From Tubulanus polymorphus (Eukaryota > Animalia > Nemertea): a stretch of 64,000 nucleotides of DNA. The position numbers were made by a program, and so were the translations under genes. The number at the start of each line of letters is the position of its first letter. Position 1 is the stretch's first letter. Location of the stretch: assembly GCF_964204645.1 (NCBI RefSeq), contig NC_134034.1, positions 2,294,072 to 2,358,071 on the forward strand, given 5' to 3'. This document shows, piece by piece, positions 1-63,952 of the stretch. The notes beneath the pieces were generated by a model. That model made no database searches, was not told the origin of the DNA, and was given only the letters and a program-made list of their open reading frames with translations.

Positions 1-677
1 TCAAGTTTCGATTGATTTTGACACAAAAATTGAACTCTGGCTATACTGTGTAACTTTCTTGTGTTTAAACGCAACTGATTTTAATCATCTACGATGAACT
101 CGGTCTGAAGTCATCGGTACAAAGTGTGACCGAAGAGTTCCGACTTTCAAACACTCTCAGTTTCGCCTTTGAAATATGACTGAATCAAAACATCCGCCTC
201 CGACAATTTGATCACTTTATGTAGATCGGCTTCGTTTGTTATAACGACTTATTGTCGCAAGACTTATTGACTTATTGTCTAGTTTGAAATACCGTATACT
301 GCGTCTATTCTCTATTAAACTATTCAAATCGAATTTTGAAATACGCCCTCGATGCTCGTTTGTAACCATTAAGATTAGGAATTTTTTCTCGCTGATAATG
401 CCCGACTCGTAAATATTTGAAAGCTATCGAAGGCTATGGCTTTGAAATGAAAATTGTTGACAAAATCGACAATTTTTTTTCAAAACTTCGAGTTGGATAT
501 ATATATAAAACAAAGTGTGGAACTACGTCCCGGGTTCTGAAACAAAACATCAGACTATCAGTTTATCAATACGTTTAGAGATATCTAGTAAATTATTTAA
601 TTGAGTTAAATTGAAAAGAGAATTTCGATCAGGTGGCTGATAAGATATGGCGGTGTTGTTAAGCGACAGGGAGTTCG

Positions 678-722
678 TTTATAGAGAATCTGCCCACAAC
701 CGGAGCCACCGACATCAACGAG
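678..722 (+). promoter_or_regulatory. Putative TATA-like promoter and tiny non-coding first exon of secreted precursor gene 1
   Basis: TTTATAGAG at 678-686, donor AG|GTAGGA at 722/723 and upstream GATA motifs (e.g. CTGATAAGATA ~638). The next acceptor (1547-1548) directly precedes the ATG, the same layout as gene 2. Confidence 0.5.
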
Positions 723-1548
723 GTAGGAATTCATTCCGTTTATCATTTTTCGTTACATTTCATGTTGTATTTTATATCGGGTGCATGAATTTCAAAACTT
801 AAAGGCCTTGGTGCCATCTTGTTCGTAGAAATGATGCAAGCCCATTTCTTGGCTGTCGGATACAAGTGATACACGTGATGGATCGAAATCCCCAACATTA
901 CATCGTTGAACCGTCTTAAAGTTCAGCATCACATGGTCAATTCTGACTCTGTTATAAGCCCGCAAAATAATAGTTTCTACATCCCCAATTACTATATCGA
1001 TGAACCTTCTAAAAGTTCAGCAACACATATTCAAGTCTGCCGCTGTTTAGACCCCGCAAACTAATAGTTTCTAGATCCCCAATCATTATGTAAATGTTAT
1101 GTGGTAATAATACATAGCCTAGCAGTTTTTGCGATCCCATCATTATAACGCCAGCTCAGATGGTCAATCATCTCGCCGTTCGGCTCTCGCAATGACATTT
1201 TATGGCTCCCACTTGCTAATAAATGCTGTATATTTGGCAATAAAACAGTTCCGAGTGGTTTCTAAATCCACATTATTATACAAATGTGTGTACGTAACGC
1301 ATTCCAGTAGTTTCTTTATCCCCATTATTATGCTAATGACATGGATGTACAAAAATCTTACAGTTCTGATGGTCGAAACACGTCGTTTAAAAACACCGCT
1401 TACTTTATCTTGTGAATCCAAAAATTCCGCAATGGTTTTTTTTACGTTGATTTTTCTGTTTAGCACCAATCTAACCAAAACAGGGCGTCTATATCGAAAA
1501 AATGATCCCTACACGATCCATTGTTTAAACAATTTCTTCACATTTCAG

Positions 1549-2721
1549 ATGAAGTCAGCGACAGTCGTGATTATTCTTTGCGCCGTTCTCGCGGCGGCGT
1601 GCTCCGCCCAAGAAACCACCGCCACCGCCGAAATCGAATCGACGGCGACGACGACCGCGAAACCGAAAACCCTACTCGATCGATTGAAAGAGAAATACGA
1701 AGAGAACAAGGAAGCTATCGTCGAGAAACTGAAGGAACTCGGAAAAGAAGCTTTAAAGCAGGCGACGGAAGCGGCGATTATGGCGGGGGAAGGTAAGTCA
1801 GGTTATGACTGATTTCGACTGATATAAATCTCATATTTCGAGTTAACAAGTAAAAATCCACAGTCGGTATTGGAAAGTTGATGTTGTAACAGTTTCGGGG
1901 GTTTATATCGTTTTGGGTAAACACCGAAACTGCTGCAAAACAGTTAGATAATCTAATTCAAAGACGTTTTTACCTGTCAGAAAAATAAATGATTTGACCT
2001 ACACGAGAGTCTGTTTGGCTTTACGTCGCTTGGATCTTGGTTTCCCAAGACTAACCCTATTGGATTATTTATTTGACCTCACGACGGGACGGCCTTGAAG
2101 CGTTGCCCACACACTGTAACCGACTATTTTCCACGCCATCTAGTGGTTTACCGATGTAGCGAGTTCCTTATTTTGCGACCTGATTGTGACGTGTATAAAT
2201 AAACCTTTGTTTCGGATTCGTAGGGAAAATCTTGGAGATGGTGGTTCAGAAAGGATTGGAGATGGCGTTAGGAGGTTTGGGCAAACGAGATCTGGATCGG
2301 CAGACGATTTCGCAGCTGGTTTCCGGCGCGATCGGAAAACTGGCCGCAACCGCTAAACAAATTGAAAACCGGATCGAACAGAAGTACGAAACGGCGATGA
2401 ACCAGTTGAAACTTGTGAAAGAACAAGTGATCGACGAATTCAACAAATCAGACCTAGCTGACGCGATGAAAATAGAAGCGAAACGAACGCAAGAATTCAT
2501 CGAGCAGGCCGCTCAAATTTTAGGTAAACCTTCGTCAGATTTTCATCGAATTAATCAAATCTATGATATGAAAGCACGTCTATGTTTCTTTTCCAGAACG
2601 AGAAGTCGGAGAATTGAGCTCGAAACTCGCTGAAGTAATCGACGAAAGTAAAAACAAATTGAACGCAGTTTTGGGAAACAAATCGATATTCGAACACGAT
2701 TTCTTGACTAGAGATAAATAA
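1549..2721 (+). CDS. Secreted amphipathic-helical precursor 1 (222 aa; signal peptide, Thr-rich linker, GGL-GKR amidation/cleavage site); family unrecognised
   Basis: Exons 1549-1792, 2224-2523 and 2597-2721, all GT-AG with phase 1/1 joins and an open frame to TAA at 2719-2721. Protein: MKSATVVIILCAVLAAACSA|QETTATAE...KLKELGKEALKQATEAAIMAGEGKILEMVVQKGLEMALGGL-GKR-DLDRQ...YETAMNQLK...FLTRDK. Aligns by eye with gene 2. Confidence 0.85.
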
Positions 2722-3754
2722 TATCGTTATCGAACATTACTCTTTAATCTATGTATCAAATATATTGACTATGCGTCAAATTTTGCAAAAAAGGTTTTAT
2801 CTTTCACATGGAATTGATATCTTCAATGATCCAGTTAATCGGTCATACGGTTCGTGATTAAAATGCGCTATGAGATCTTTAGAGCTACAGCAATAAATTA
2901 CGCTTAATCCGGACAAACTTAGACTGGTTAAAGGTGGCCCGAAGAATAAAGCGAAGACCGACTTAAAGATGAGAAAACTCGTCGCTAAGTTAGAAAGGTT
3001 AAACTAAGTAGACTTCGCTTAAGTCGGAACATTTGGGACCATAAATTGACCGAATTGAGCGATATCCGAGTTGGTTGCTATGTTATAAATAGTGTCACGG
3101 AAAAATGTTTAAAGAATTTACAATATACAAAAATAAAAAGAATTCTAAACATTTTGTAAATCATCATATATACATATATATACCCATACAGGTGGTCTCG
3201 CCTAGGGGTTGATATTCATTAGTAATCGGGCATTTTAACGAGCGATAGCTGATCTGAAACCTGTAGCCCGGAACCAGTCTCAATCCGCGGGGCTCACCGA
3301 CACCACACGCCCTGCTGCCGCAGCGATATATACCGCAATCAATTCGCCGTTTAACGATCCGCAACAAAGAGAAATTGTCGTCATTAATTTTACCGTTTGT
3401 ACCAGGTGCACGGAACTGTGCCTTCCAGCGTCTGGGGGTCGGTACTCAATCATATCCAGATACGGGGAAACGTCTCGCTAGGCGTAACCGACGCGAAAAT
3501 CGAAGTTATACTCAACGCGCAGTCGAACACAAGGTCAAGGTGAACTTTTTAGAAAATCGTCGTTAATTCGAACTCGAAAATTTGAAGAATGTATTGATAT
3601 AATTTGGGCCATGAAGTCACTCAAACGATAGTTTTGCTTCACCCGCTGAGAGGCACTTTGATAGGACTACAAGTTTATCCACTCAACGGTGGACCGATGG
3701 AGAAACGACTGTCCACCACAGTGATTCAAACCAATGAAAACACACGAACCGTTT

Positions 3755-4050
3755 ACACCTGGTGGACCCTCGCTTGCCACAAGTGGAATCCTCATATTGT
3801 CACAGTAAGCGTTATCGGGTCCTTCCTGAAATATAGAAGGAAGACTGACCTTCTACTAGCGACACCTGGTGGATCCTCAATGCAACAAGTGGAATCCTCC
3901 ATTGCCGCAGTAGTTGTTGTCCTGCTGCGCACTAGTGACACCTTGTCACTGGGGAATCCTCGATTGCCGCAGAAATTGATTATCTGCTGCGCACTAACAC
4001 CACCTGGTGGATCTTCACTTGCCACTGGTAGAATCCTCGATTGCCGCAGT
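3755..4050 (+). repeat. 77-bp tandem repeat family, array 1 (dispersed family)
   Basis: Unit ~CTGGTGGATCCTCACTTGCCACAAGTGGAATCCTCTATTGCCGCAGTAGTTGATGTCCTACTGCACACTAGCGACAC. Other arrays at ~5600-5960(-), 16920-17260, 19130-19455(-), 23030-23370, 29255-29700, 47980-48450(-), 52755-53035 and 57545-57925(-). Period of 77 measured at 48181/48258. Confidence 0.9.
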
Positions 4051-5297
4051 AGCGATGAAATATATGATAATGAGAGTTGAAATAAAACTCTAGTCTAAAG
4101 TAAACAATTCGACCCCCAGGAGGATTTCCAATCAAACACGACACGTCTATTCAACTACTCGCAATGACAGACGATCATTTTGATAACAACAATTTTCTCC
4201 CGCAGTCATTGGCTAAAAAATGCACCCTTCCTAAAAAGATGATATCATGCGCGCAGTAGGTGTTCGCGGGAGCGGGCGTTTACAACCGTTCAGGAGTTTC
4301 AATAAACGTCGTCAAATTAACACAGTTTCGACGAACAGGAATGACGGTTTGTTTCCATAGACCATTAAGTGACTGTTTGATATCAATGAAATAAAAAAAC
4401 CCACAGCGCAATAGAAAAACGAAATGAGAATTCGGCATATCGACCCAATTCTGTGTTTTAAAAAATGGCGCTTAGAATCGGGTCATAGAATTGGGTCGAA
4501 AGGTCAAATTCTCATTACGTGGGTTTTTCCTGAATGAGGAACAACGAAATTCATTCAAAGATACTCTATCAGAGGTCTTCTTTCCAATCCAAAGTCTGAA
4601 TATCGATTCAAATACTCAGTATAGAATAGCATTTTTTAGATGAGTAACAAGAAGAGAGTGAAGCTGAAATTTCGGTTTTAACGTGGCGTTAAAACGGAAA
4701 AGACAACGTTAATACCAAAAAAACTGGTTTTAACTTTACGTCAAAACGTAAAATTCATTATTGGTGGAAATCGAGTGAGTGTCATGATTTTTTTTTTCAA
4801 TGTTGCCCGAATTAGCCACCATATAAAAACGTGTCCGACACCGCTCCCAGCGTTGAAAACAAGTAAATTGAATAATTCATCGCCGAACAGCGTCAGAAAC
4901 GAACGCGCGCGGGCGAGTTCCGGGTACGATACGGCTAAATGGTAGGTAAACCGACAGCTAAGCCGGTTAGGGGATTTATCGCGGTACCTCTCGATACGGG
5001 GATGATTGACATACGAATTAATGCGCTTATTCGCGCGCGGCGGTGGCGGTTTACAAACGGTCCCTACGGATGCGTTCGCGTTGTGTCGAATACAAGCGCG
5101 TAAACGCACTATTTCGATTTGATTATCAATTGTTTTGGGAAATCCTTTAGATGAAATTGACAAAAAGTCGAAATCCTCGTGGATTGATTATACGATACGG
5201 AACAAGACAAGTATGAGAAAGAAGGAATTTTAGTGGAACAAACAGCAGAACTGGGCCCACTCGCGTAGTTCTAGTGATCAAATCACAAATCAATACA

Positions 5298-5545
5298 CCA
5301 GGGCCCAGTCTCACGAAAAAGTTTAACTCAAATATTTGTTGTAATTGCTAATGGTTAATTCATGTCTTCATTGCGGACAACAATTCAAACTTAACCGTAT
5401 TAGGCTTAAACTTGTTCGTGAAACTGGGCCCTGGATCCGGTTTCACAGTTGTGAGTTAAGATTTGACTCTGGGTTAAAACATTGAAAATGAACTAACTTT
5501 AACTCAAGAGTTAACCCTCACTCACAACTGTGGAACTGGGTCCTG
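5298..5545. mobile_element. Two abutting Harbinger/PIF-like MITEs
   Basis: GGCCCAGTCTCACGAA...TTCGTGAAACTGGGCC, then CTG, then GATCCGGTTTCACAGTTGTGAG...CTCACAACTGTGGAACTGGGTC. CWG trinucleotides at the junctions. The second family recurs at 44590-44700. Confidence 0.65.
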
Positions 5546-5599
5546 TAGTTCATTCAAATACTTTTTTCTACCCCGCCCCGATAAGTTCGTTTCAACGAC

Positions 5600-5960
5600 G
5601 CCAAGGTGGCTATATAAGAGGACTCCACTCGTTGGAATTAAGCAAACCAGGTGTCGCTAGTGTGCACTAGGACATTGACTACCGTGACGATAGAGGATTC
5701 TACTTGTGGTAAGTGAGGATCCATCAGGTGTCGCTAGTGTGCAGTAATTCCAGGAGATTCCACTTGTGACAAAACAGTGCGGATCTAACAGGTGTCGCTA
5801 GTGTGCGGTGAGACATCAACTACCGCGAGAGGATTCCACCTGTGGCAAGTGAGAATTCCCCCATTACTCTTCCATGCTACATCTTTTTTCTGCGTATCAA
5901 TGATGGCCCAGCGGTGATGCTACTGCGGCAATAGAGGATTCCACTTCTGGCAAGCGAGTA
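5600..5960 (-). repeat. 77-bp tandem repeat family array
   Basis: Repeated CCAGGTGTCGCTAGTGTGCA...AGAGGATTCCACTTGTGGCAAGTGAG. Confidence 0.85.
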
Positions 5961-6519
5961 GTTAATTCAGTCGCCCAGCAAAAAGCACGTAACTAATGCC
6001 TTGAATTGTTGCCGATTCTGTGGCGCTGAAAGGCTGCAGCGCGATTTCTCACTCCTCGCTCGCGTAAACGGCGCCTAAAACCATCAGATATTGTGTTGTG
6101 CCGCGCCGAAATTTAATTAATTACACATAAAAGGCAGGCATTAAAATACGCCGTAAGATATCCGTTAGTGAAGCGTATAAAAGCTCAAAGCGCGATTCTG
6201 ACTCGATAAAAACAATGAGATCGACGATCGATACGCCGGTTGAAATTTCAATGAATGTGAGATCTGATTCTTGAAATGCGCTTTGTTTATTTAGCTAACT
6301 GAGATTGCATTTACCTTCTACGCCCTGCATTGTTTGATATAAAGTGTCCTGGTTAAGTCTCAGTTTATGTTTGAATGAGGACTTTTATATCCAGTTCCAT
6401 ATTCCATCGCCTTAGTCGTGAGTAAGACTTGAATCTTGAGTCAAAATAAGTTGATTCTCAGTCATTTTTGAATGATTGCTATCGTCCTGATTATTTTGCT
6501 TTCATTAACTTTTACTTTA

Positions 6520-6812
6520 ACTTTATAGTCAAAATTAGTTAATTTTCTGTAACTTAAACTCTACAGTCAAAATCAGTTCATTTTCAGTAACTCAAACTCT
6601 ACAGTCAAAATTAGTTCATTTTCAGTAACTTAAACTCTACAGTCAAAATCAGTTCATTTTCAGTAACTCAAACTCGACAGTCAAAATTAGTTCATTTTCA
6701 GTGACTTAAACTCTACAGTCAAAATCAGTTCATTTTCAGTAACTCAAACTCTACAGTCAAAATCAGTTCATTTTCAGTAACTTAAACTCTACAAGCAAAA
6801 TTAGTTCGTTTT
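6520..6812 (+). repeat. 38-bp minisatellite (~7 copies)
   Basis: Unit AACTCTACAGTCAAAATCAGTTCATTTTCAGTAACTCA; period 6557 to 6595. Confidence 0.9.
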
Positions 6813-7141
6813 CTATTTTTTTCTATGCATTCAAAAGTAGTTATATTAGTTAGAACTAGCACAGAGCCGTGGATCGGGTCCAAGATCCATTCCTATAAGC
6901 GATTTAGATTTGAACTTCCAGTTAAAGGCAGTTTATTTCTCAAAATCCCGAGGAACTGTAGCCTTGAGACAATAAATCGTAACTTCGCGAAATCACATTT
7001 TCCAGATGTTTCCGAATGTCACTAATGGTTGATATTGATAAAAACCGCGATCAATTTTAACCGTTTAAATTCTTGATAACAAATCATTTTAATGTTTAAT
7101 CGATAACACATCTGTTAAGTTCGCGGTTGAAAGTGCTTTAG

Positions 7142-7198
7142 TATAAATGTGACAACACGATGACCGATGTCCGAGTCACTTGAATATACCTCGCTAAG
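7142..7198 (+). promoter_or_regulatory. TATA box and short non-coding first exon of secreted precursor gene 2
   Basis: TATAAA at 7142-7147, donor AAG|GTTAGT at 7198/7199 and several GATAA motifs at ~7030-7107. Confidence 0.6.
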
Positions 7199-7506
7199 GT
7201 TAGTTGGAATTCTAGCTTTCTAACAATTTCGTAGTTTTCTAGGCCCAGCAGTTGCATAGTCATGGCTTACATTTAAGACCAGTCTAAGACCAACTTAGTC
7301 AAAACCAGTCTTAAGATTTAAGACCATTTTTGGGCCCAGGTACGGTCTTAAATCTAGGACCGTTGTTAAATCGGTGGTTGGTTTTATAGAAGTCTGGTTT
7401 AAGAGTAGAACCGGTCATAGACTGGTTTTAGATATAAGCAATGACTGTGCTATTTTCCCCGCAGTTTTATGTTGAATTTATGATAAGACTTTTAATGTTG
7501 TTGCAG

Positions 7507-10500
7507 ATGAAATTCCTCGTGTTTTTAACTATCGCGGCCGTCGTCGGGTCCAGCTTAGCGCAACCGGAAAAGGCCGACGACACCAAACCTCTGAAACAGA
7601 GATTCAACGAGTTGATCGACCAACTGAAACAGATCGGCAAAGACACACTTGCCAGCGCTGCTCAACAGGCTCTCGCCGCCGGAAAAGGTTAGGAGGTATT
7701 TTTTGTATATCAAATAACTTCATAGTTCACCGGTTTAACAACTGGAAATGACTCGACCAGAGTCTGAATCGACCTGGATTGTGAAGCTGAAAATTACAGA
7801 ATTGCATCCATGTAATAATGATAATATCGATCATTTTAAATATAGCCGCAAAGCAGCGAAATCAGTTTTCCCATACGGCACACTAGCATAGAATACTTAC
7901 TTCGATAAACATATATACAATATTTCTAAATCAAGCTGCAAGGAATCAATCACGTCTTCTAAAAGGTTTTTGTAATGTAGGATTAGCATTTTTAGAAAAA
8001 CCAGGAAACATTTCGGACTTCATTTGCAATTATTAGTGTGATCCGTGGTATCATCACAGCACGGACACAGAGTGTTCCGATGTAGGTAATGAAATATCCT
8101 AAATATGTTATTTCCATCCGGCAGCTACACTGATCGACCTGCTGTTGAAATTGGAAATGGAACACATCGCCGGCGGTCTGGGCAAACGTAGTCTGAAGGA
8201 AGATGTTCTGGCGAACGCCGCCGATTTGTTCAACAAAGTTTCCGACGCCATCAAGTCGAACGCCGCCAAAGCGATCGTCGCCTACGAGCAGGCCATGGAC
8301 AAACTGAAGGCGACCGTCGAAAAGATGCACGAGTCAGACTTCGTCAACGGCCTCGGAGACAAAGTCAACGAAATCAAAGCCGAAATCGAAAACATCATGA
8401 GTGAGTTCTTAAGAAAAATTTTCAAAAAAAACCTCAAACATATATGATATAAGAAGAACCCCACTTTGAGTGATTTTTGAAGATTTCCGAAAATTTTTTA
8501 AACTCAAATATTATGATATATAGAAAAAAACTACCGAAGCGTTTTGAGCACAACAGACGAATATTTTTTAAATTCTTTCCTACAGCATATTTTAAAGAAA
8601 CGTAATTTCGATTGAATAGAAAATTTTGATTCGAAATATTAAGTCGAATGCATCTGAATATCTTTTCTTTTTTCTTGTGATGTCTATCTAGTCCCCGTGA
8701 CGGTTCCGTAGAACATCCCACTTTTTGAACACTTGAAAAATTAACTTTGATTTCTAAAATTTTATATGCACACGCCTGTGTTCGAAATTCAAATTACAAC
8801 AATGAAATACTAAGAAAAATATTCTACATTTTATTTAGCCCGGCCGCGTGAAAGAAAATACCGCATTTTTGTAATTTTTTAACTAAACAAAATCGAAATT
8901 TTACGGAATATTTAAAAATTGAAAATAACTTTTCAGATTTGCATATTTGCAGGCTCCATTAATTCTGTTTTTCAAGCTTACTTTCGATTTCAATCGTCAA
9001 ACTAATGAATAATGTTTGCATTTCATATATATTTATTCATTCTTCGATACGGCGACAATGTCTTTGAAAAAAAAAAAATCTTCCAGAGGAGCACAACATC
9101 GTAATGAGATCTGTCGAAGACGATATGGAATCCGACATTTCCCGGGCAGCGAAAAAAGCTAAACTCGGAAAGAAAATCGCCGATTTCTTCAAGCCACACA
9201 TCGACACAGTAAAAGGGGTAGGTATTCGTTGGAGTTTGATAAAAAAAAGAAACGTCGACTCCGTCTTGACAAGGAGTGGGAGAGCCGCGCGCGATTTTAA
9301 TAGTCTCGGAGACATCCCTGTTGGATGCACGCGTGAACGACCCAAACACGGTTTTGTTAACGCGGCTATGATTGATTTTGAACTGAAGATACTTCGTTAC
9401 TTTCTGATTTTAATTCGCTACGATGAACTCGGTCTGAAAGATATTCACATCGATACTAACTGTGAACAAACAGCGATGACTTATAAACAGTTTCGTTGGT
9501 TTCAATAAACAAATAACTGTCTAATTCAATTGAAGAAAATCCTGCAATATATAGAATGAACTTCGAGAGTAATTGACGTTTAGATTCAATCTTATGAGCC
9601 ATTTTCAAAACTAAGAGAGGGGTGACGTTTAGACTCAATTCTATGAGCCATTTTCAAAACTAAGATAGTGGTGACGTTTAGACTCAATTCTGTGAGCCCT
9701 CCCATAGCTTTTCTTTCCCGTATTGTGGGTTTTATTCAAAACATTCTTCAAAAACTCTTTAGTTTCATCTAAAACATGGCTGAAACATAATGAGCTCTTC
9801 TGGCGATCTGACCACGCGTACTATACTAGATCGACTGAATCTTAGACGAATGACGTCCTACGAAATATCTAATAGAACCCTTAATGATGACGTTCAAATA
9901 GATTTATGTATCCAGCGTTTCTTATCATTTATTTCGGGAGATTGAATAACCGAGATGTGATTAGATGTCGTCTACAGCAGGCTGCCCGTTTCACTCTGCG
10001 GAGTACTCCAAACAGTGCCATCTAGCGGAATTCTCGCTGCTCCACCAAATTTTGTGGAGTAGCGGAGTAGCGTCTGAAAGAGTCACGTGACCTGTTCTAG
10101 TGCATTTCTTTGCTCCGCACAGTGTTCGGAGTACTCCGCAGAGTGAAACGAGCAGCCTGCTGCAGTCACCGCGCAGGGAGCGACTTTCGATTTAAGACAT
10201 TCGATTGTATTTTTAGCATCTGCAAACAATCGGCGATTTGGCTAAAACGCACGCGACGAACATCCACTCGGCCGCTAAGGTGCACATTAACGATCTGGCC
10301 GATAAGATGATGGAACACGGAAAGACGTTAGTCGGACACGGGAAAACAGCCGTCGACCAGCTGAAAGAGGCCGTCACCGATATTCTAAGTAAGTAATTCG
10401 TGTCTTCTTCGCGGGGTGGACGTCATGCTTGAATGATTTATTTACTTATGATATGTACAAGATTATAAACATAATTTTTTTTGGATATAATTGCGTAGAT

Positions 10501-11345
10501 AAATAGACATATATAAGAAGGACAACCCCGAGCCCTAGGGGCTGAGCCTGATAGGGGGATTGCCTTGAGAAAAAAAATGAATTTGCTTAGAAATCTATCG
10601 CAGATATCCAGTTCAGAATGACTCTTGTGAGTTTGACTGTTCAAAGCTAATGAAAGTGTAATACTTTTGACTGTAGATTTAAAGCAATTTCAAATGAATT
10701 AGTTTTTTTTGTAAAATTAAGGAAATTGAAAATTTACCTAGTTTTTTACTGTTTAGTTTAGGTAATCGAACGAAATAAGATGATTTTGACTGTTAGAGTC
10801 AAAATGAGGATTTTGACTTTAAAATTTCAGTCATCGAAAATGAACTGATTTTGACTGTAAATTGGTAATGAACTAGAATTATGACTTTTCATTGACCTGT
10901 TCAGCAGTTGTTGGGACACATTCGGCTCAAGAGCGAGCTAATTCGACCCCGGCCACTCGAGCAGACATAAGTGTCGAATCGAAATGTAGCAAATGTAGGT
11001 AATCATAAACTTGTTAATAACAACGCAGACGTCGATAACGTATAAACTACAGGATGACATATTGCTGAGAGATGCGACGACCCCTAGACGTTCATTTCCT
11101 GCCGGTTTGAAGTCATCTTTCCCTGCAAATTTCCGATACATTAACGGCAACAGCAACAGCATCATCAGCAGCAGTCGCTTTCTATCTCAGGCCGAGCAAC
11201 TAATTTACTATTGATTACCGCTGCTGCCTTGTATTATAGCTAAATGCCAGGTTAAGGCGATAGTTAAATCAAAAGACAGCTGATGGCAAATGATACCGAG
11301 ATACATCAGCTTCAGCCGACAATCTCGTTCGCTAAAAAACGGCCA

Positions 11346-11388
<43 letters not shown>

Positions 11389-12241
11389 CTCGTAAAGTAT
11401 ACGATTGTTTCCGCAAAAATAGATCGCGACTCTCTTCCGCAATTATCGCGCTGTTCTCGGCGATACTTAGCACGCGACATCGCGGACGGTCGTTAGGTCG
11501 AAAACAATGCGCGGCGCTCGTAAAATACACTCCCGCAATTCCGCAATTCCTCCGAGATATGCTAGGAACAACTTCGATCGAAACGGATTCGCGAGAATGC
11601 GCTTCAGCGAAACTATCGAAAAAAGAATTGTTTCGTCAAGTGGCTGTCCGTAATTCGGGGGTTATTGGCCACACTTGTTATGGATTGCACAATACACCCG
11701 ACGACAATGCAACATATCATTATTGAGTTTTCTCGTATTGGGGTTCGGGTACCCCTACTGTGGCAATCGAGGATCCGCCTGGTGCGCCAGTGGTTATGCA
11801 GTTACGGCACTTCAATTTCTTCTACATTTGTCATTAGTAAATCAAATTCCAGTATAACTATACCATACGCTCTCATTAGGAGCGTCAATCTGATACCTAT
11901 TTGATGACTTGTTTGACAACATTTCCATTTTGGAGCCTAGGAATTCCAGTTCAAAATTCATTGAAAATGAACTAATTTTCATGAGTGCATTGTTAAGCCA
12001 TCTGGTACCCAATTCTATGGGTGTTCCGGTGATTTTTGGGCGATGCTTAGTATAATATTCTAGCAAACCGTACTCCTCATCGCATTCAAGCAAAAACTTC
12101 CGATTGTTCATTTATTTTTTTTTTGTCGTTGCAGATGAAACCTTCAAGAATATGGCCGGTACAATCAAAGATGCCATCGATACTGGCAAAGATTCCATCA
12201 ACACTATCACAGATCACGTTGCCGGAGCTGTAGAAGCTTAA
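7507..12241 (+). CDS. Secreted amphipathic-helical polyprotein precursor 2 (288 aa; amidated peptide A, helical peptide B, acidic spacer, His-rich 11-mer-periodic peptide C); family unrecognised
   Basis: Exons 7507-7687, 8125-8400, 9087-9217, 10217-10388 and 12135-12241. Phases 1,1,0,1 are all compatible, total 867 nt, TAA at 12239-12241, AATAAA at 12283-12288. Protein: MKFLVFLTIAAVVGSSLA|QPEK...EHIAGGL-GKR-SLKEDV...MRSVEDDMESDISRAAKK-AKLGKKIADFFKPHIDTVKGHLQTIGDLAKTH...VAGAVEA. Confidence 0.85.
9975..10162. mobile_element. MITE with ~35-bp terminal inverted repeats in an intron of gene 2
   Basis: CAGCAGGCTGCCCGTTTCACTCTGCGGAGTACTCC ... GGAGTACTCCGCAGAGTGAAACGAGCAGCCTGCTG. Confidence 0.75.
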
Positions 12242-12855
12242 GGGAATGGAGAGTCTTATCTTATGTTAAACTAAAGCTAAAAAATAAAATATTCTTTTTC
12301 AAATCAGAAGAAAATATCAACTTTTTTACTTGTGGCTTGGCGCGGGATTCATTTCTAATGCGCGCGCATCTCTGGTTCTGTAGGATTTGATCAAATTGAA
12401 GAATATGTTTAGAAAACCTCCTATATATCAGGCCAGCAGTAGCGTGACGGATTTTATGGGCTGTCCGTAGTCGTCGAGATGCGGACCTATTCGACAGTTG
12501 CCAGTTAATGCTTTTAGGCAATGCATTGTAACGGCAAAGCCGGCCGAAATTGGAGTTCAAATTGGCAAATCTGGCGGTTAATCGCGGAACCCTTTGCGGA
12601 ATCGCGGAACCCCGTTTTCCACAGCGGTTCCGGTACCCCATTACAATTATTGCATTTTGGTTTTTTTTTTCTTACATTTACCGTAGATGTATCCAGATAT
12701 CTTTCTCTATCGCTAAACGACTGTATCGCGTTTCTCGAGAATCCACCCGATTACCGCACACGTGATTTACCCGGTACATGTATCGGAGTGGATCAGCACA
12801 TGACTGTGTATCTAGATACCTGTCTAGCCACCGAGAGGTAGGGGTATCTATCAGA

Positions 12856-13055
12856 GAGTATATCCAATACGCGTGTTGACATAACAGCAATCGAATCCCA
12901 CAATATAAAACGAAAAAGTCCGAAATCTGCTAATTTTGAATTTTTGTTAGGCACGACGTTTCGAATGGTCTGACACAGCCAACGTCAGGTGGAATGAGAA
13001 ACAAGGGATCTGCAAATTATTAAACTTTTACGCTTTATATTGTGGAATTCTGATG
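12856..13055. mobile_element. ~200-bp Penelope-like (PLE) mini-insertion with inverted ends and degenerate hammerhead
   Basis: GAATCCCACAATATAAA (12893-12909) is inverted at 13034-13050 (1 mismatch). 9-bp TSD TCTATCAGA at 12847-12855 and 13056-13064. Shares the terminal TTTCGGACTTTTT...ATTGTGGGATTC with the 13.6-14.6 kb PLE. Confidence 0.7.
12952..12991 (-). ncRNA. Degenerate type I hammerhead ribozyme motif
   Basis: Minus strand reads CAC-CTGACG(T)-TGGCTGTGTCAGACCATTC-GAAAC-GTC-GTG. Stem I is CAC/GTG and the core CUGANGA has an A->U change. Confidence 0.5.
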
Positions 13056-13088
13056 TCTATCAGAATGGTAAGGAAGCAGTAGCAGCAC

Positions 13089-13182
13089 AGCAGCAGCAGC
13101 AGCGGCAGCGGCAGCGGCAGCGGCAGCGGCAGCGGCAGCGGCAGCGGCAGCGGCAGCGGCAGCGGCAGCAGCAGCAGCAGCA
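13089..13182 (+). repeat. (CAG)n/(CAGCGG)n microsatellite
   Basis: Read directly from the sequence. Confidence 0.95.
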
Positions 13183-13680
13183 ACATCTATGGGAATTAGA
13201 TCATGAAACACTGATGAATTTGTGTTAACCGCGTAAACAATGCTTGCGTATTAGAACGTGAGGATGATATGAACAGTTGCTGATGTGGGGCGGGAGAGGA
13301 ACCTAAGGAGCTCACGGGGAACCGAAATAGCTCTCAAGTCCGTCAGGCACAAGAAGTATCCGCGTGGAAGTCAAAAGGTTTCTGAGTGGGCAGGTATCCG
13401 GGAGGAATCTAACAGGAATCTAAGAGGGCTCAAGAGGTATCCGTGAGGAATCTGAAAGGGCTCAAGCGGTACCCTTAGGGAATCTGACGGGAGCTCTGAA
13501 AGGGCTCAAGCTGTATACCTAAGACGTTGCTAGAGGTGTCGATGAGGAATCCGATAGGGATCCGAAAGAATCATGAGGAATCTGACATGGATCTAGTATC
13601 CGAAAGAGCTCAATAGGTCACGATAGGTAAAACACAATATCCGTGTTGACGCGATGAGGAGAGAATCCCACAATGATAAT

Positions 13681-14190
13681 AGAACTCCTACGTTGGCTAC
13701 CGATAAACAGCCTATCATTGTACCGTATGTACCTTTCCTCGAGAATTCTAAAGTTTCTCTTCGGTCACTAAATAAACAACTCATCTTTAAATACAATAAT
13801 AAACTTAGTAACATATTGTTTAACAACAAACCGAAAACCGAATCCCTAAACTGTGGAATTTATAAAATACCTTGTAAAGTTTGCGACAAAGTATATATAG
13901 GAGAAACAGGTCGGAATCTTAATCAACGCATAAAAGAGCATAAATTAGATGTAAAAAACTTTAAACCTGAAAGCGGAGTTGCTAGTCATGTTTTTCAGAC
14001 TTCACACAATTTTGATTTTGCTAATGCTGAATTAGTTTACCCTTGCAGCGATAAAACTAGAAGACATATTTTGGAATCTGCATTAATTATTGAAAATTCG
14101 AACAACGTTGTAAACCTTAACAATGGTTTTTCCCCCCATAATAAACTTATATCAAAATTCCTCTGTAAACTGGTTAAACTCAACACTTGA
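13681..14190 (+). pseudogene. C-terminal fragment of PLE pol: thumb/linker + GIY-YIG endonuclease (no RT core)
   Basis: IVPYV...CGIYKIPCKVCDKVYIGETGRNLNQRIKEH...VASHV...H.FDF...R.ILESALI...LN is the PLE GIY-YIG/CCHH signature. The ORF-track ATG at 13654 lies in the inverted tail and is not a true start. Confidence 0.88.
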
Positions 14191-14545: not shown

Positions 14546-15219
14546 ACTACTATCTCGAAGTTTCATTTTCGGACTTTTTATTATCATTGTGGGATTCTCT
14601 CCTCAGCTCAATAGGTATCCGTGAGAAATCCGAGAATGATCCGAAATAAATCCGAAAAAGAATCCGAGAGCGATGATAAATTTCGGCAGGATCGAGATCA
14701 TTATCATTCGTCGGAATCGAATGTCGGATTTGCGAGGAATATCAGAAGCATAGGTTTGAAAAGAACCAGAGCATCGACTCCTCTGGGGTATCCCCAAAGA
14801 GGATTCCAGGCAATATCTAATTGAGCGATATTCTGAAGGGTTATTAGAGAGATCCGATAGCTGCCGGGGATAATCTAGTAGAGATTTATTCCGATACATC
14901 TTACACGTCACGCGCTTGTAACGAACTATTCCGTGTGACAGCATCAGAATGATGAGAGCGCGAAAGTAAACAAAACTAAACTGCGAATGCGCGTGTCGAT
15001 TGTTCGAGTCACGAATCAGTTGATGAAATAAGCAACGAACAGGCAGCAGCTGGGAGGTTGATGAGGTTATCAGGAGGTAGAGAACGGAGGTTGTAGCGAC
15101 GGTCATAGAGATGCTGGTAAATGGAGCGGGTAGCGCGTGAATTAAGATGGACACAAGGTTCTCTAGACGAAAAGGGGGTGATTATGACAAGGAGGTTGTT
15201 TTCCCGATGACGATGAGAT

Positions 15220-15910
15220 GGTCCAGATGACAGGGAGGTGGTCACGATGACTAAGAGGTGGTCCAGATGACTAAGAGGTGATCCAGATAACTAAGAGGTG
15301 GTCCAGATGACTAAGAGGTGGTCCAGATGACTAAGAGGTGATCCAGATAACTAAGAGGTGGTCCAGATAACTAGGAAGTGGTCCAGATAACTAAGAGGTG
15401 GTCCAGATGACAAAAAGGTGGCCCAGATGACTAAGTGGTGGTCCAGATGACTAAATGGTGGTCCAGATGACAAAGAGGAGGCCCAGATGACTGGGAGGTG
15501 GTCCAGATGACTAAGAGGTGATCCAGATAACTAAGAGGTGGTCCAGATGACAAAGAGGTTGCCCAGATGACTAGGAGGTGGTCCAGATAACTAAGAGGTG
15601 GTCCAGATGACAAAAAGGTGGCCCAGATGACTAAGTGGTGGTCCAGATGACTAAATGGTGGTCCAGATGACAAAGAGGAGGCCCAGATGACTGGGAGGTG
15701 GTCCAGATGATAAGATGTGATCCAGATAACTAAGAGGTGGCCCAGATGACTAGGAGGTGGTCCAGATAACTAAGAGGTGGTCCAGATGACAAAAAGGTGG
15801 CCCAGATGACTAAGTGGTGGTCCAGATGGCTAAATGGTGGTCCAGATGACAAAGAGGAGGCCCAGATGACTGGGAGGTGGTCCAGATGATAAGATGTGGT
15901 CTAGATGATC
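15220..15910 (+). repeat. 20-bp minisatellite (~34 copies)
   Basis: Unit GGTGGTCCAGATGACTAAGA, with higher-order variants. Confidence 0.95.
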
Positions 15911-17764
15911 GAGAGGGGCCCAGGTGACTATGACAGGTAGGTTGTCAGATGAAATTGAAGTTGTCCAGATGATCGGAATGCGGCCTATACGACAATGAAT
16001 CGGGCAGGAATGGCCCAGATGAGGCGGAAAAGTCAATCAGACGATAGGGAGTTTGTCCCGATGACAAGGAGGTTGTCCAGATAACATGGAGGTACATGTA
16101 TTCCAGGGAGGTTGTTCCAACGGCTGGAAGGTAATTTCCCACCTCTGCGACTCAATATTTTTCCATTTCTATCGCTATCTCGAGGCGCGTATAGTTATTA
16201 ACCCCGTCGCTATAATGGAAGGTCGCACGCAATTGAACTGTAACCCAACCACACATGGTTGTTAATTTGTCACGGAATAAGCTGTAAGAGCGCAGACGCA
16301 TAATAGACCGCGCTAAGACAATCAACGAGCTATTTCTGTACTATTGTTCCCCGAATCGTCCGACTAATGACGTACGCACACATATATATATATATCTATC
16401 AGAGATCCGTTTCAAAGGGTTCGCGAGTATTTTACTAATGGACGTTATGTGATTGATTTGCCAGCGCAATTTTAACTTGAAACCTGAGCTAGTTTTATGG
16501 ACCATGGTTTTGAAAGTTTTTAACGCCAGCCCCTGGCGTATGGGATGAAAATAAACTCGGTCTGGAGAAATCCACCATTAAAGTACACGATTTAGTTGTA
16601 GCTATGTTTATGGCATTCATGACGTCAGAATGATGAACGGTATCTCTGCAGCAGCTGCTGCTGCTGCTGTTGCGGTGATATTTTCATCCAACGGCAACAA
16701 TTATCGCGTAAAATTAATCATCCGTATTAATAATAATCGCTGCAGCAGTCGCGGCCAATACAGACAGCACGACTCATTAGCTTCCGGCGGATGTACGGTG
16801 ACGTCACACAGATGACTACCGCGCGTATAAATTGTTTAATGAACTGAAAAAGGAAGCAATTAGACGAGTGGATAGATACACCCGGTGGATAGATAAACCC
16901 CTGGGTGGATGGATAACATCCCCTAGGTGGATTCTCACTTGCCGAATCATCGATTGCAGTAGTAGCGTTGCCGGGTTTTCTTCGAAATGGAGAAGATGTT
17001 GAAGCGTGGAAGACAGGCCTACCAGCTCACTTGATGGATCCTCGCTCGCAACAGGTGGAAACCTCTGTTGCCGCAAAAGCTTATGTCCTACTGCACACTA
17101 GCGACACCTGGTGTATCTTCACTTGCCAAAAGTGGAATCCTCTATTGCCAAAGCAGTTGATGTCCTGCTGCACACTAGTTACACGTGGTATAACCTCACA
17201 TGCCACAAGCGGAATCCTCTATTGCTGCTGCAGTAGTTGATGTACACTGGAACTTCGTTTACGACCGGTGGAATCCTCCTTAAGAAAACTGCTGGATCCA
17301 AGGAGAAATGAGCCTGGTGGAGCCGTCGTACTATTCAAATTGAAGTATCAAGGATCGGCTATAATTGATTTATCAATAATTAGTAGGCCTACTTAGAGAA
17401 CCTTGAACACCCTCGATTGCCACAGTTAGCGTCGCCAGGTCCAGCGTACAAACACTTGATTCTGGTTGCGCAATTCCACTAGTATCGAATTTTCGATATT
17501 GTTTTGAATTCACAGCGATGCGCCGCCTTCGCCTAGCTGAATATTCCGCCTCACGAACATAGGTAACTGAAACTGTAAACATACGCGCGGTCGATATTTT
17601 CACCTGCGAGTGAATTCGAAGCCGCTGTTTCCTTAAAACGTGACCCGAATCCGCGAGAAGCATTCAGACCGCGTCGTCTGCGTAACAATGACGTCATGAT
17701 ATCGATTTATTCTGCCGAGTATCGATTCTTTATTCTTTCTCGGTGGAAAGTTTGTGAATCTGAC

Positions 17765-18115
17765 CCTGAACCCCCAGTTCCACAGTTGTGTGGGTTTAAT
17801 CTGTCTCTGAACCCAGTTCCACAGTTGTGTGGGTTTAATCTGACTCTGAACCTAGTTCCACAGTTGTGTGGGTTTAATCTGTCTCTGAACCCAGTTCCAC
17901 AGTTGTGTGGGTTTAATCTGTCTCTGAACCCAGTTCCACAGTTGTGTGGGTTTAATCTGACTCTGAGCCCAGTTCCACAGTTGTGTTGGTTTATGACTGA
18001 ATCCAGTTCCACAGTTGTGTAAGTTAAATCTGACTCTGAGCCCAGTTCCGCAGTTGCGTAGTTTAAATCTGACTGTGAACCCAGTTCCACAGTGTGGGTT
18101 TAATCTGTCTCTGGA
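17765..18115 (+). repeat. 39-bp minisatellite derived from a MITE terminal arm
   Basis: Unit CCAGTTCCACAGTTGTGTGGGTTTAATCTGTCTCTGAAC, ~9 copies. An inverted array lies at 42630-42990. Confidence 0.92.
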
Positions 18116-19129
18116 CCGGGTTCTGTAGATCGCATGTAAACTCAAGCCACTTACAGCTATTAAAAGAAACTCAGCTCTTTTTCCATTCATGCGTTAAAAA
18201 GAGAACTTCTCTGAAAGTTTGTTGTATCTCGCTCGCTGTTTGAGAGAGGGGGAACGTTACAACTGTTGTCTGCTATTTAAAACATGTTTGATGTCTGATA
18301 TCACGTGATCCCTGTAATAGGCTATTCGCTAATCATTATATACACAGGGTTTTAGTGTTGAGGTTCTCAGATGAGTTTGAATGACAAAGCGAAAGTAACT
18401 CTGACCGCAAATGAATAAAAACATCACGAATGTGAAGGTCAGTAAAATAACAGTAAAATCCCTCTTGTGGCCCAGCAAACTATTGCAGGGGTCTCAAGAG
18501 CTAAGGTTTCTACCAGAGGTAGCTAGCAGTTAACGTTACTGCAGGTAACTGGACTCGAAGCGTAGCCACGACCAAACCTTCCCCGTTGGAATTTTTAAAT
18601 CCTGGTAATATTGTTTACCGAATTCAAACACGGTTGACAAAAGTGCAAAATCGTTAGAACATGTTCGGGTGGGGGGGGGGGGGACCACCGCTAGCCGGAA
18701 TTCAGTTTTTCTCCGAATCGGCTTGAGAACAGGTTTGTTGGGTAAAGTGCGCGGGTGTAACACCCGGATTTTCACGTGATTTCTGCCATCCCCGTTTAAT
18801 CGACTTGTCGTGTCGAATGCCATTATCAGCAGACGTCGGCGAATTTGAATTTTCCGATATTTTACGCCGAATCAGTTCCGACTAATATCGATTCGAGGGG
18901 GTTGAAGGATTGACTCCGGCGGCCAATGTAGGATCACTCAAAATCCTCTCAAACGGTTCTTGTCATATTTTACCCGTCTGTATCGGGAATTACGAGTAGG
19001 ACTTATTGGGCTAATTGTTAATTCTGTATGACTGCGTCAAATGCCCCTCAAAGTAAGACTCGGTAGCATTAATAGATTTAAGACGGATCTGTCTCGGTTA
19101 GATCATTAATTAATTAACGGTTTGCGCTA

Positions 19130-36946: not shown

Positions 36947-37660
36947 AATGATTAAAGGCCATATGGATATAAGGATTTGATCGAATACGAATTTTGACAA
37001 TGAGATCATTGAAATATCAAACACATAGGCCTATATCCGATTTTAAAAATTTAACGGCCTATAGGCTTACGCATGCATTACGCATTATGCATTTTCAAAT
37101 TTATCGGGCATATATTCAACGGGCATATATATGAATTGCTAGGTTTAACGGCAACAAGAGGTGAAATAAAACGTTTGATTAAAAATGTAACGACCCTAGT
37201 TAGAAACACGATATCACGACGACGACGACGCGGGGCTTTGTGACGATACGCGGTGAAAATAATTTGTGCCGCCGTGTTCATGATAAAAGCCGTTTGAGGA
37301 AGTACTCGAATTGTTGACAGTCATCTGTGTTTGATGTACGTGTATATATAGGAACAAAAAAAAAACCCCGATGAAACATGATACCAATGCCAGCTGAATA
37401 TCGTATCGATACTATTGAAAACAATGGCTAAGCTGTGTCCGTAAACCCCCTATGACGTCACCAAATTGCCTACTAGTGATTTGATCACTTCCAAAAAGAT
37501 GGCTGCTGTAAAAGAAATTTAAAGTGTACAAGACCGACCTCCTTCCAGAGAGGAGCAGGTGGATATTGTCTTCCGGAGGTGGAATACTCTATTGCCGCAG
37601 TAGCTTTGAAAGATCCCCATTTAGACAAAACAGAAACAAAAAAAAATAATCAATACTTAC

Positions 37661-38368
37661 TAAAACCCACATTTCGTTGAAATCGGACGTTGCTATGGAC
37701 GTTGCTAGGTGACACAGCGGCAACAATACTCCTATCGCCATGGCCAACAGAATACGTAACGGAATCATACAATAAATCGCTAAAATTACGTAAACGATTT
37801 GCCAGACGCCGTCGGCGGGACTGTAAACTTCGACGTCGAGTCCGAAAATTCGAACCGGCATGTAGACAACACTGAACAGTACCGACAGGCCGATGTACGT
37901 AACCGATATGTAGGGCAGAATTTGTTCTTGCATAAATTTACTATTACAAAAAATCACCAAACAAACGAACACCAGGCAATGAAAGACGTTGTAGACTATC
38001 TGAACGGTCGGTCGTAAGGCGTAGGCGAATTGCAACGAGGCGAACAGACCGGTCAACACGATGAACATGAGAATCGCCTTCGACACGGATCTGACTTGCA
38101 GTTTGTAAACATATCTTTGGTATAGGTTATCGAGTTCTTCTTCGCGGAACGGGTGAATGTGTAGAACTTTAGAAAGTCGTGTTCGCTGATAAGGCGGTAG
38201 ACTACCGGTGCTTTGTATTTCCTGCATGTTACCGATACTGCTAGTCAGACTAGCTCCGTCGTCACGTCCGCCGCTGCGAGAAGAGATCGGTAACAATCTA
38301 TAGGTATGTTTATTATTACCGCGCCCGCCGCCGGTCAGTTTCGTTTGAGCACTTCCAGTCACGTCCAT
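37661..38368 (-). CDS. rut: Transmembrane adenylate cyclase, rutabaga/AC1-like (Ca2+/calmodulin-responsive type), first coding exon
   Basis: 708-nt exon ending at a phase-0 GTAAGT donor (37660). F.EEELDNLYQRYVYKLQ..SV, an M1 multi-TM block and DGVWQIVYVILAIYCMIPL...G..LP..H match my recollection of the N-terminal half of Drosophila rutabaga (ELELLYQRYTLKLQ; EGVWQIVFVVFLAYAMMPL). The subtype call is less certain than the family call. Confidence 0.88.

Positions 38369-55684: not shown

Positions 55685-63952
<8,268 letters not shown>

What the first reader, a model, noticed from the sequence alone, without database searches (positions are those of the whole stretch)
1549..12241. Tandem pair of unrecognised secreted precursors predicted to release pGlu-capped, C-amidated, Cys-free amphipathic peptides
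Seen: two genes with the same architecture (tiny non-coding exon 1, ATG directly after the acceptor, phase-1 intron after AG[E/K]) and alignable proteins: KLKELGKEALKQATEAAIMAGE vs QLKQIGKDTLASAAQQALAAGK; GGLGKR in both; YETAMNQLK vs YEQAMDKLK. In both, the predicted signal peptide is followed by Gln, and the mature regions have no Cys. Established: G-K-R is the prohormone-convertase + carboxypeptidase + PAM amidation signal, and N-terminal Gln cyclises to pyroglutamate. Double end-protection is typical of bioactive peptides (neuropeptides, AMPs, venom cytolysins). Inference: gene 1 yields an 80-aa and gene 2 a 61-aa pGlu...GGL-NH2 helical peptide plus further helical products. GGLGKR is kept exactly while the rest has diverged, which suggests the amidated end is functional. 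I cannot assign a known family; candidates are membrane-active defence/toxin peptides or lipid-binding apolipoprotein-like proteins.
Basis: partly seen in the sequence, partly recalled or inferred. Interest (0 to 1): 0.85.

Follow-up and report, generated by a model that had tools for sequence, protein, structure and literature searches.

The report
Ribbon-worm apolipoprotein-like peptide polyproteins
Two neighbouring ribbon-worm genes belong to an unnamed animal family, also found in a bryozoan, whose secreted precursors are predicted to be cut into several near-neutral helical peptides that likely coat and dissolve fats as blood apolipoproteins do, rather than acting as classic positively charged toxins.

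Summary
The two genes are real. The window is from the ribbon worm Tubulanus polymorphus; my splice models equal the RefSeq models, and intronless relatives cross all four gene-2 junctions without gaps. A third paralogue lies upstream, fused to gene 1 in RefSeq. Searches gave about 20 distinct relatives, one named (bryozoan Bugula neritina): secreted, nearly Cys-free precursors of amphipathic helices separated by KR/RR sites. The first basic pair is kept in 20 of 20, the amidation Gly in 17 of 20, but GGL and the N-terminal Gln in only 4 of 20 each, so the 'pGlu...GGL-amide' signature is not the family trait. The first peptide is net negative in 16 of 20, unlike cationic antimicrobial peptides. 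The best-kept part is gene 2's His-rich C-terminal module (absent from gene 1): an 11/3 helix with the class A charge pattern of exchangeable apolipoproteins. ApoA-I/A-IV top the sequence hits but stay under Pfam's cut-off and tie with generic helical bundles. Best reading: processed, lipid-solubilising, apolipoprotein-like peptides (0.45); lytic defence or digestive peptides 0.3. No expression, processing or activity data. New variant; interest 0.5.

The parts
1549..1792 (+). Gene 1, coding exon 1: signal peptide (about 20 aa), Thr-rich spacer, first part of module A
2224..2523 (+). Gene 1, coding exon 2: end of module A, G-K-R, most of module B
   Evidence: junction crossed without a gap by P0004 and P0006
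2280..2288 (+). Gene 1 Gly-Lys-Arg codons (predicted convertase cut and amidation)
2597..2721 (+). Gene 1, last coding exon with stop; no module C
6176..6256 (+). TATA box and alternative first exon of gene 2 used by RefSeq (coding from 6215, adds 14 aa); unverified
7142..7198 (+). TATA box and candidate tiny non-coding first exon of gene 2 (about 7174-7198); unverified
7507..7687 (+). Gene 2, coding exon 1: signal peptide (about 18 aa), first part of module A
8125..8400 (+). Gene 2, coding exon 2: end of module A, G-K-R (8181-8189), module B
9087..9217 (+). Gene 2, coding exon 3: end of B, acidic 12-aa spacer (9110-9145) between single Arg residues where relatives have KR or RR, start of module C
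10217..10388 (+). Gene 2, coding exon 4: His-rich core of module C (11-residue register)
12135..12241 (+). Gene 2, last coding exon: end of module C and stop

Best explanation
The two genes are members of an unnamed family of secreted, modular precursors that are predicted to be cut at Lys-Arg sites into long near-neutral amphipathic helices, which likely bind and solubilise lipid as exchangeable apolipoproteins do. Steps: (1) a signal peptide sends the chain into the secretory pathway (sequence shows it; cleavage site by rule of thumb); (2) a PC1/PC2-type convertase would cut at KR, carboxypeptidase and PAM would trim and amidate module A (site conservation shown, processing inferred); gene 2 would be cut again around an acidic spacer to free the 116-aa module C (relatives have KR/RR there, gene 2 only single Arg; inferred); (3) each product would fold on a lipid surface as a helix lying flat, with Lys and His at the edge of the hydrophobic face and Asp/Glu on top (charge geometry shown, strongest for module C; binding inferred); (4) His protonation would raise module C from about +1 at pH 7.5 to +8 at pH 5.5 (computed), a possible pH switch. 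Amidation points to release from gland-type cells, so gut lumen or mucus is more likely than blood (inferred). Genes 1 and its upstream paralogue are a diverged branch without module C and may have drifted towards other uses.
For: Family architecture: KR 39 vs 13.6 and GKR 23 vs 1.0 expected, KK 23 vs 81, in 20 precursors (related rows, so not 20 independent events). AlphaFold models are all helix, with a break at the GKR. Module C of gene 2: hydrophobic period 3.67, self-similarity at lags 7, 11, 22, 33, basic residues at 106 and acidic at 160 degrees from the hydrophobic face, 0 of 10000 label shuffles; Bugula 22 of 10000; module A of the upstream paralogue 15 and of gene 1 325 of 10000. This is the pattern given for apolipoprotein helices in PMC8146922 (passages), and 11-mer 3-11 helices in PMC5889406 (passages). 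Module C is the best-kept part against 6 of 6 relatives tested (79% with P0003, 32% with Bugula), unlike hypervariable defence peptides. Family profile A3 ranks apoA-IV (8e-8) and apoA-I (1.1e-6) first in the PDB; profile A2 ranks apolipophorin-III and apoA-IV first (about 1e-3). PF01442 is the top Pfam hit for 12 of 18 proteins. Module A is net negative in 16 of 20.
Against: No lipid binding, expression or processing data. PF01442 scores are 23-42 bits against a cut-off of 90, and gene 1's protein has no Pfam hit at E 0.01. In one search engineered helical bundles score 4e-6 and 6e-6, close to the apolipoproteins, so the match may reflect composition. The fold match to apoA-IV (Z 8.9, rmsd 3.7, 147 aligned) is tied with axonemal coiled coils and rhodopsins, on a low-confidence model (mean pLDDT 52.8). 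The class A test fails for module B of all three Tubulanus genes and for module A of gene 2; gene 1 has no 11-mer signal and no module C. Pro-punctuated 22-mers are nearly absent (1-2 per protein). Amidation is typical of bioactive peptides, not of known apolipoproteins (my knowledge). Class A helices also occur in perilipins, synucleins and LEA proteins, and apolipoproteins themselves can be antimicrobial (PMC2866484 passages).
Confidence: 0.45

Rival explanations
1. The products are membrane-lytic peptides for defence (skin mucus), prey capture or lysis of food cells in the gut; His-rich module C would be switched on by acid, as clavanins are.
For: Precursor layout (signal peptide, peptide, G-K-R, extension; intron just before the ATG) parallels myticalins (PMC5577615 passages). 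Gly before the first site in 17 of 20; last 40 residues of module A are +5 in the upstream paralogue and +6 in P0010. Tandem duplication and module repetition (P0004, P0022). Clavanins are His-rich and pH-dependent; several nemerteans have acidic body walls (PMC4986456 passage). Neutral amphipathic helices can be cytolytic (staphylococcal delta-toxin; recalled).
Against: Module A of genes 1 and 2 is -3 and -1 and 61-80 aa long; Arg is 0.4% of module A; its last 25-40 residues are no more amphipathic than shuffles; sequences are conserved, not hypervariable; no Cys, so no link to the six-Cys, pI 9-10 parborlysins (PMC6410017 passages).
Confidence: 0.3
2. The chains are structural or protective secretory-granule, mucus or adhesive proteins (granin- or LEA-like) whose helices self-associate or shield membranes.
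For: Near-neutral, Lys/Asp/Glu/Ala-rich, low-confidence all-helical models; dibasic sites also cut granins (my knowledge).
Against: Strict class A geometry and position-specific conservation in module C from nemertean to bryozoan; large hydrophobic faces; no LEA or granin Pfam hit at E 0.01 among 18 proteins.
Confidence: 0.12
3. The precursors are neuropeptide or hormone precursors and the amide end addresses a receptor (GGL-amide as in nemertean allatostatin A).
For: GGLGKR occurs 387 times in the proneuropeptide supplement of PMC8557429, in allatostatin A precursors among the passages shown.
Against: The three residues before the Gly vary across the family and the Gly is lost in 3 of 20; one long peptide per site instead of many short copies; seven family motifs had 0 hits in that supplement.
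Confidence: 0.06

Closest known systems
Vertebrate exchangeable apolipoproteins (apoA-I, apoA-IV, apoC-I; PF01442, PF04691)
   Same: Secreted, Cys-free, all-helical; class A charge pattern and 11/3 period in module C; top though weak sequence hits.
   Different: Polyprotein with KR sites and amidation signals; few Pro-punctuated 22-mers; His partly replaces Lys at the helix edge; far under the Pfam cut-off; gene 1 lacks the 11-mer module.
Insect apolipophorin-III (PF07464)
   Same: Invertebrate secreted amphipathic helical protein; best hit of profile A2 (E 0.001).
   Different: Single uncut five-helix bundle (recalled); scores under the cut-off in all 18 proteins scanned.
Linear amidated antimicrobial peptide precursors (myticalins; clavanins; frog dermaseptin/magainin types, recalled)
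   Same: Signal peptide, peptide, G-K-R, further segment; intron before the ATG; tandem genes; His-rich stretch.
   Different: Products 40-140 aa, near neutral, Arg-poor and conserved; the segments after the site are full amphipathic modules, not acidic throw-away tails.
Nemertean cytolysin A-III and parborlysins
   Same: Secreted helical proteins of the same phylum, with an amphipathic helix.
   Different: Those have six Cys and pI 9-10; these have none in the mature chain and no sequence hit to them.
Allatostatin A / buccalin (GGL-amide in nemerteans)
   Same: GGLGKR hexamer in genes 1 and 2.
   Different: Short multi-copy neuropeptides; GGL is not kept in this family (4 of 20).

Membership tests
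Exchangeable apolipoproteins (apoA-I/A-IV/E) | Secreted, signal peptide, no transmembrane anchor | tested here: met
   Hydrophobic N-terminus with -3/-1 sites in 20 of 20; rule of thumb, no SignalP
Exchangeable apolipoproteins (apoA-I/A-IV/E) | Class A helices (basic at edge, acidic at centre of polar face) | tested here: met
   Met for module C (0/10000) and module A of two genes (15 and 325/10000); not for module B or gene 2 module A taken singly; pooled family met for A, B, C (related rows)
Exchangeable apolipoproteins (apoA-I/A-IV/E) | 11/22-residue periodicity | tested here: inconclusive
   Present in module C (period 3.64-3.67 in 12 of 12 C-containing last segments; lags 11, 22, 33 mixed with 7, 18, 29); absent from gene 1 and modules A+B
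Exchangeable apolipoproteins (apoA-I/A-IV/E) | Tandem Pro-punctuated 22-mers | tested here: not met
   One P-[HYF]-x-[DEN] motif in gene 2, none in gene 1, at most two in relatives
Exchangeable apolipoproteins (apoA-I/A-IV/E) | PF01442 score above the curated cut-off (90 bits) | tested here: not met
   23.4 bits for gene 2, best relative 42.2, no hit for P0001
Exchangeable apolipoproteins (apoA-I/A-IV/E) | Shared fold | tested here: inconclusive
   apoA-IV Z 8.9, rmsd 3.7, 147 aligned, tied with unrelated bundles; model pLDDT 52.8
Exchangeable apolipoproteins (apoA-I/A-IV/E) | Reversible lipid binding, particle formation | not testable with these tools
   needs experiment
Cationic alpha-helical antimicrobial peptides | Precursor with convertase and amidation site | tested here: met
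   G-K-R in all three Tubulanus genes; 17 of 20 in the family
Cationic alpha-helical antimicrobial peptides | Net positive mature peptide | tested here: not met
   Gene 1 -3, gene 2 -1; positive in 4 of 20, including the upstream paralogue at +5
Cationic alpha-helical antimicrobial peptides | Killing or membrane lysis | not testable with these tools
   needs experiment
Myticalins | Mature peptide 23-42 aa, pI above 11, over 10% Arg (PMC5577615) | tested here: not met
   61-80 aa, pI 5.0-5.7, Arg 0.4%; definition
Cytolysin A-III / parborlysin | Six cysteines, pI 9-10 | tested here: not met
   No Cys in mature genes 1 and 2; definition
Allatostatin A / buccalin | Several short peptides sharing a conserved amidated end | tested here: not met
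   One long peptide per site; end not conserved; family motifs absent from the proneuropeptide list

The most novel reading that the evidence does not exclude
This is the missing exchangeable-apolipoprotein system of spiralian animals: a convertase-cut, amidated polyprotein releasing several class A helices, with a His-based pH switch, shared by ribbon worms and bryozoans and possibly of common origin with vertebrate apoA-I/A-IV; its module-C-less offshoots in Tubulanus show a lipid carrier being recruited as a membrane-active defence peptide.
Probability: 0.2. Interest if true: 0.75.

Novelty: new variant of a known kind. Interest (0 to 1): 0.5.

Why it matters
Exchangeable apolipoproteins are known from vertebrates and insects (my knowledge); a search for 'exchangeable apolipoprotein' with 'lophotrochozoan' found no paper. 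A conserved, processed family in two spiralian phyla gives concrete, synthesisable candidates for how these animals move or emulsify lipid, and a natural series from neutral to cationic variants for testing where lipid carriage ends and lysis begins. If the lytic reading holds instead, it is a new Cys-free peptide class from a nemertean group from which, by PMC12846013 (introduction), no peptide toxin has been isolated.

Tried and rejected
No whole genome is held, so paralogues elsewhere could not be counted; a profile scan of the window's six frames found only the known exons. No RNA holder was listed; the three runs gave no splice joints. ESM Atlas: no usable feature hit for gene 1 or module C, only generic helical structure hits. 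Foldseek: no match at E 0.001. NCBIfam: nothing above cut-off for 6 proteins. Rfam: none in 1-14000. Complex prediction of module A with module B: no answer, score 0.02, alignments not used. Tree test of the three Tubulanus genes as one clade: p-AU 0.059, undecided. Earlier scan findings: nothing in three look-ups. Lineus 'AGEamide' and 'GxGH' precursors were read and differ. P0009 (eight hydrophobic amidated repeats) was left out as only weakly alike (score 57, z 5.3). Paper searches without a description of the family: accessions and a motif (0 papers); motifs in supplements of PMC8557429, PMC7460313, PMC9415933. The mucus-proteome supplement of PMC12846013 could not be read and may hold relatives; subscription papers and bioRxiv supplements were not searchable.
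Full report
Observation. The window holds two multi-exon genes on the + strand. Gene 1 (1549-1792, 2224-2523, 2597-2721) gives 222 aa and gene 2 (7507-7687, 8125-8400, 9087-9217, 10217-10388, 12135-12241) gives 288 aa; of four donor/acceptor pairs tried for the third intron of gene 2 only one kept the frame open. Database searches returned the same proteins named as Tubulanus polymorphus, a ribbon worm: XP_074659459.1 (437 aa) and XP_074659460.1 (302 aa). Residues 216-437 of the first and 15-302 of the second equal my models. The first 215 residues of XP_074659459.1 carry their own signal peptide and a G-K-R site, score 325 against gene 1 (0 of 300 shuffles), and are not encoded in the window's first 1548 bases: a third paralogue upstream, most likely fused to gene 1 by the annotation. 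Relatives P0003 and P0018, on contigs of 925 and 950 nt that leave no room for introns, cross all four gene-2 junctions without gaps; P0004 and P0006 do so for the first junction of gene 1. No RNA run was listed and the three runs laid cover introns unbroken, so the non-coding first exons remain open: gene 2 has two TATA-plus-donor candidates (7142/7199 and 6176/6257), gene 1 none by my scan.

The family. A profile of the three Tubulanus genes found 10 proteins at E 0.001 among 1.84 billion representatives; a second profile found 14 at E 1 among 7996 scored candidates, including Bugula neritina KAF6034519.1. All others are unnamed records, mostly on contigs of 0.9-1.3 kb. Two more intronless copies came from the metagenome collection. 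Gene 2 against the Bugula protein scores 194 (shuffles 43, reversed 73). For counts I used 20 rows: the three Tubulanus genes and 17 relatives. I left out P0009 (weak), P0019 (no N-terminus), eight near-identical cluster mates (P0012-P0016, P0027-P0029) and the two loci. The rows include close groups, so counts are not independent events. Every row has a signal peptide followed by helical modules separated by basic pairs. KR occurs 39 times against 13.6 expected, GKR 23 against 1.0, while KK and RK are depleted. The first site is KR in 20 of 20 and has the amidation Gly in 17. GGL precedes it in 4; the first mature residue is Gln in 4 (signal cleavage set by hand). Some relatives repeat modules (P0004, P0022) or end in a four-Cys module (P0004, P0006). 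Where gene 2 has an acidic 12-aa spacer between single Arg residues, P0005, P0008, P0017, P0019 and P0020-P0022 have KR or RR just before module C. In trees of signal peptide plus modules A and B, gene 1 and the upstream paralogue group strongly (99/98) and join P0004/P0006 at 93/90 in one tree but not in the other; gene 2 sits near P0003 and P0018; one clade of all three Tubulanus genes was not rejected (p-AU 0.059).

Anatomy. AlphaFold models of gene 2 are all helix with a break at the G-K-R, but of low confidence (mean pLDDT 48.4 alone, 52.8 with 19 sequences; module C under 50). All segments except module A of the upstream paralogue (15 of 300) are clearly more amphipathic than shuffles (0-3 of 300), while the last 25-40 residues before the amide are not. 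Module A has side-chain charge -3 (gene 1), -1 (gene 2) and +5 (upstream paralogue); 16 of 20 are negative. Module C, found in gene 2 but not gene 1, is the best-kept part against all six relatives tested. Its hydrophobic period is 3.67, with self-similarity at lags 7, 11, 22 and 33. Basic residues lie at 106 degrees and acidic ones at 160 degrees from the hydrophobic face (0 of 10000 shuffles); in the pooled family His lies at 74 degrees. The same test passes for Bugula and P0021 module C and for module A of the upstream paralogue and, weakly, gene 1; it fails for module B of all three genes and module A of gene 2. Computed charge of module C rises from +0.7 at pH 7.5 to +7.7 at pH 5.5.

Comparison. 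Basic residues at the polar-nonpolar edge and acidic ones at the centre define apolipoprotein helices (PMC8146922, passages); 11-mer 3-11 helices occur in apolipoproteins, perilipins and synuclein (PMC5889406, passages). Family profiles rank apoA-IV, apoA-I and apolipophorin-III first among solved structures, but engineered bundles follow closely. PF01442 is hit by 13 of 18 proteins, always far under its cut-off; P0022 alone passes three cut-offs, for ApoC-I, L27 and an antitoxin family, which shows how loose such hits are. The fold searches do not discriminate. So membership of the apoA-I/A-IV family is not established, while the claim that module C works like one is well founded on geometry. 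Against cationic antimicrobial peptides stand charge, length, low Arg and conservation; myticalins share the precursor and gene layout but are 23-42 aa with pI above 11 (PMC5577615, passages). Parborlysins have six Cys (PMC6410017, passages). GGLGKR also ends nemertean allatostatin A peptides (PMC8557429: passages, one section and supplement searches), but the family does not keep GGL. Other papers seen: PMC12846013 (first sixth of the text), PMC9415933 (passages and supplement search), PMC2866484, PMC4986456, PMC10396302, PMC11767717 (passages), PMC7460313 (supplement search).

Mechanism and rivals. Most likely (0.45) the precursor is cut and amidated in secretory granules and the released helices coat lipid, emulsifying or carrying it in gut fluid or mucus. 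Shown: genes, architecture, site conservation, helix geometry. Inferred: processing, lipid binding, tissue. A lytic role in defence or digestion (0.3) uses the same physics and fits amidation, gene duplication, the cationic variants and the His content; apolipoproteins themselves can kill bacteria, so the two readings may both hold in part, and gene 1's branch is the likelier place for it. Structural or protective secretion 0.12; neuropeptide 0.06.

Novelty and verdict. The proteins are 'uncharacterized' in RefSeq, and I found no description in the searches named under Tried and rejected (and supplement look-ups). The building block is known; the packaging of class A helices into a convertase-cut, amidated polyprotein shared by a nemertean and a bryozoan is, to my knowledge, not.

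Noticed in passing
upstream of window position 1 (P0001 residues 13-215): RefSeq XP_074659459.1 joins a third paralogue to gene 1, probably an annotation fusion; its module A is cationic (+5) and starts with Ser, not Gln.
   Followed up: partly
window 1573, 2462, 2464: Run X1 shows other alleles in gene 1 giving I9V, D161E and A162V.
   Followed up: yes
P0004, P0006: Gene-1-like relatives end, after a basic pair, in a 56-aa module of a helix plus four cysteines with no Pfam hit of note.
   Followed up: no
P0009: Unnamed 426-aa precursor of eight near-identical hydrophobic, anionic 47-50-aa peptides ending in G-K-R or G-R-R; only weakly alike to this family.
   Followed up: partly
L001 927-1460; L002 from about 850: Both contigs are chimeric: L001 runs into ribosomal protein L18a, L002 into unrelated GC-rich coding sequence.
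   Followed up: partly
window 13627-14190 +: ORF with a GIY-YIG domain (PF01541, E 1.9e-6); likely a Penelope-type retroelement remnant (label recalled).
   Followed up: no
window 37589-38410 -: Exon of an adenylyl cyclase N-terminal region (PF16214, E 2.9e-13).
   Followed up: no
window 55685-61619 -: Exons of an EF-G-like GTPase (EFL1/EFG_IV hits under cut-off); resembles spliceosomal EFTUD2 (label recalled).
   Followed up: no
window 52132-52479 +: ORF resembling a fucolectin / F5-8 type C exon by eye (recalled); no Pfam hit at E 0.01.
   Followed up: no
window 6514-6813, 15202-15930, 17757-18117, 42636-42975, 61836-62663 and several 74-78-bp arrays: Minisatellites of 38, 20, 39, 39 and 34 bp and a dispersed 77-bp repeat family; high-depth repeats also lie between and within the two genes.
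   Followed up: no
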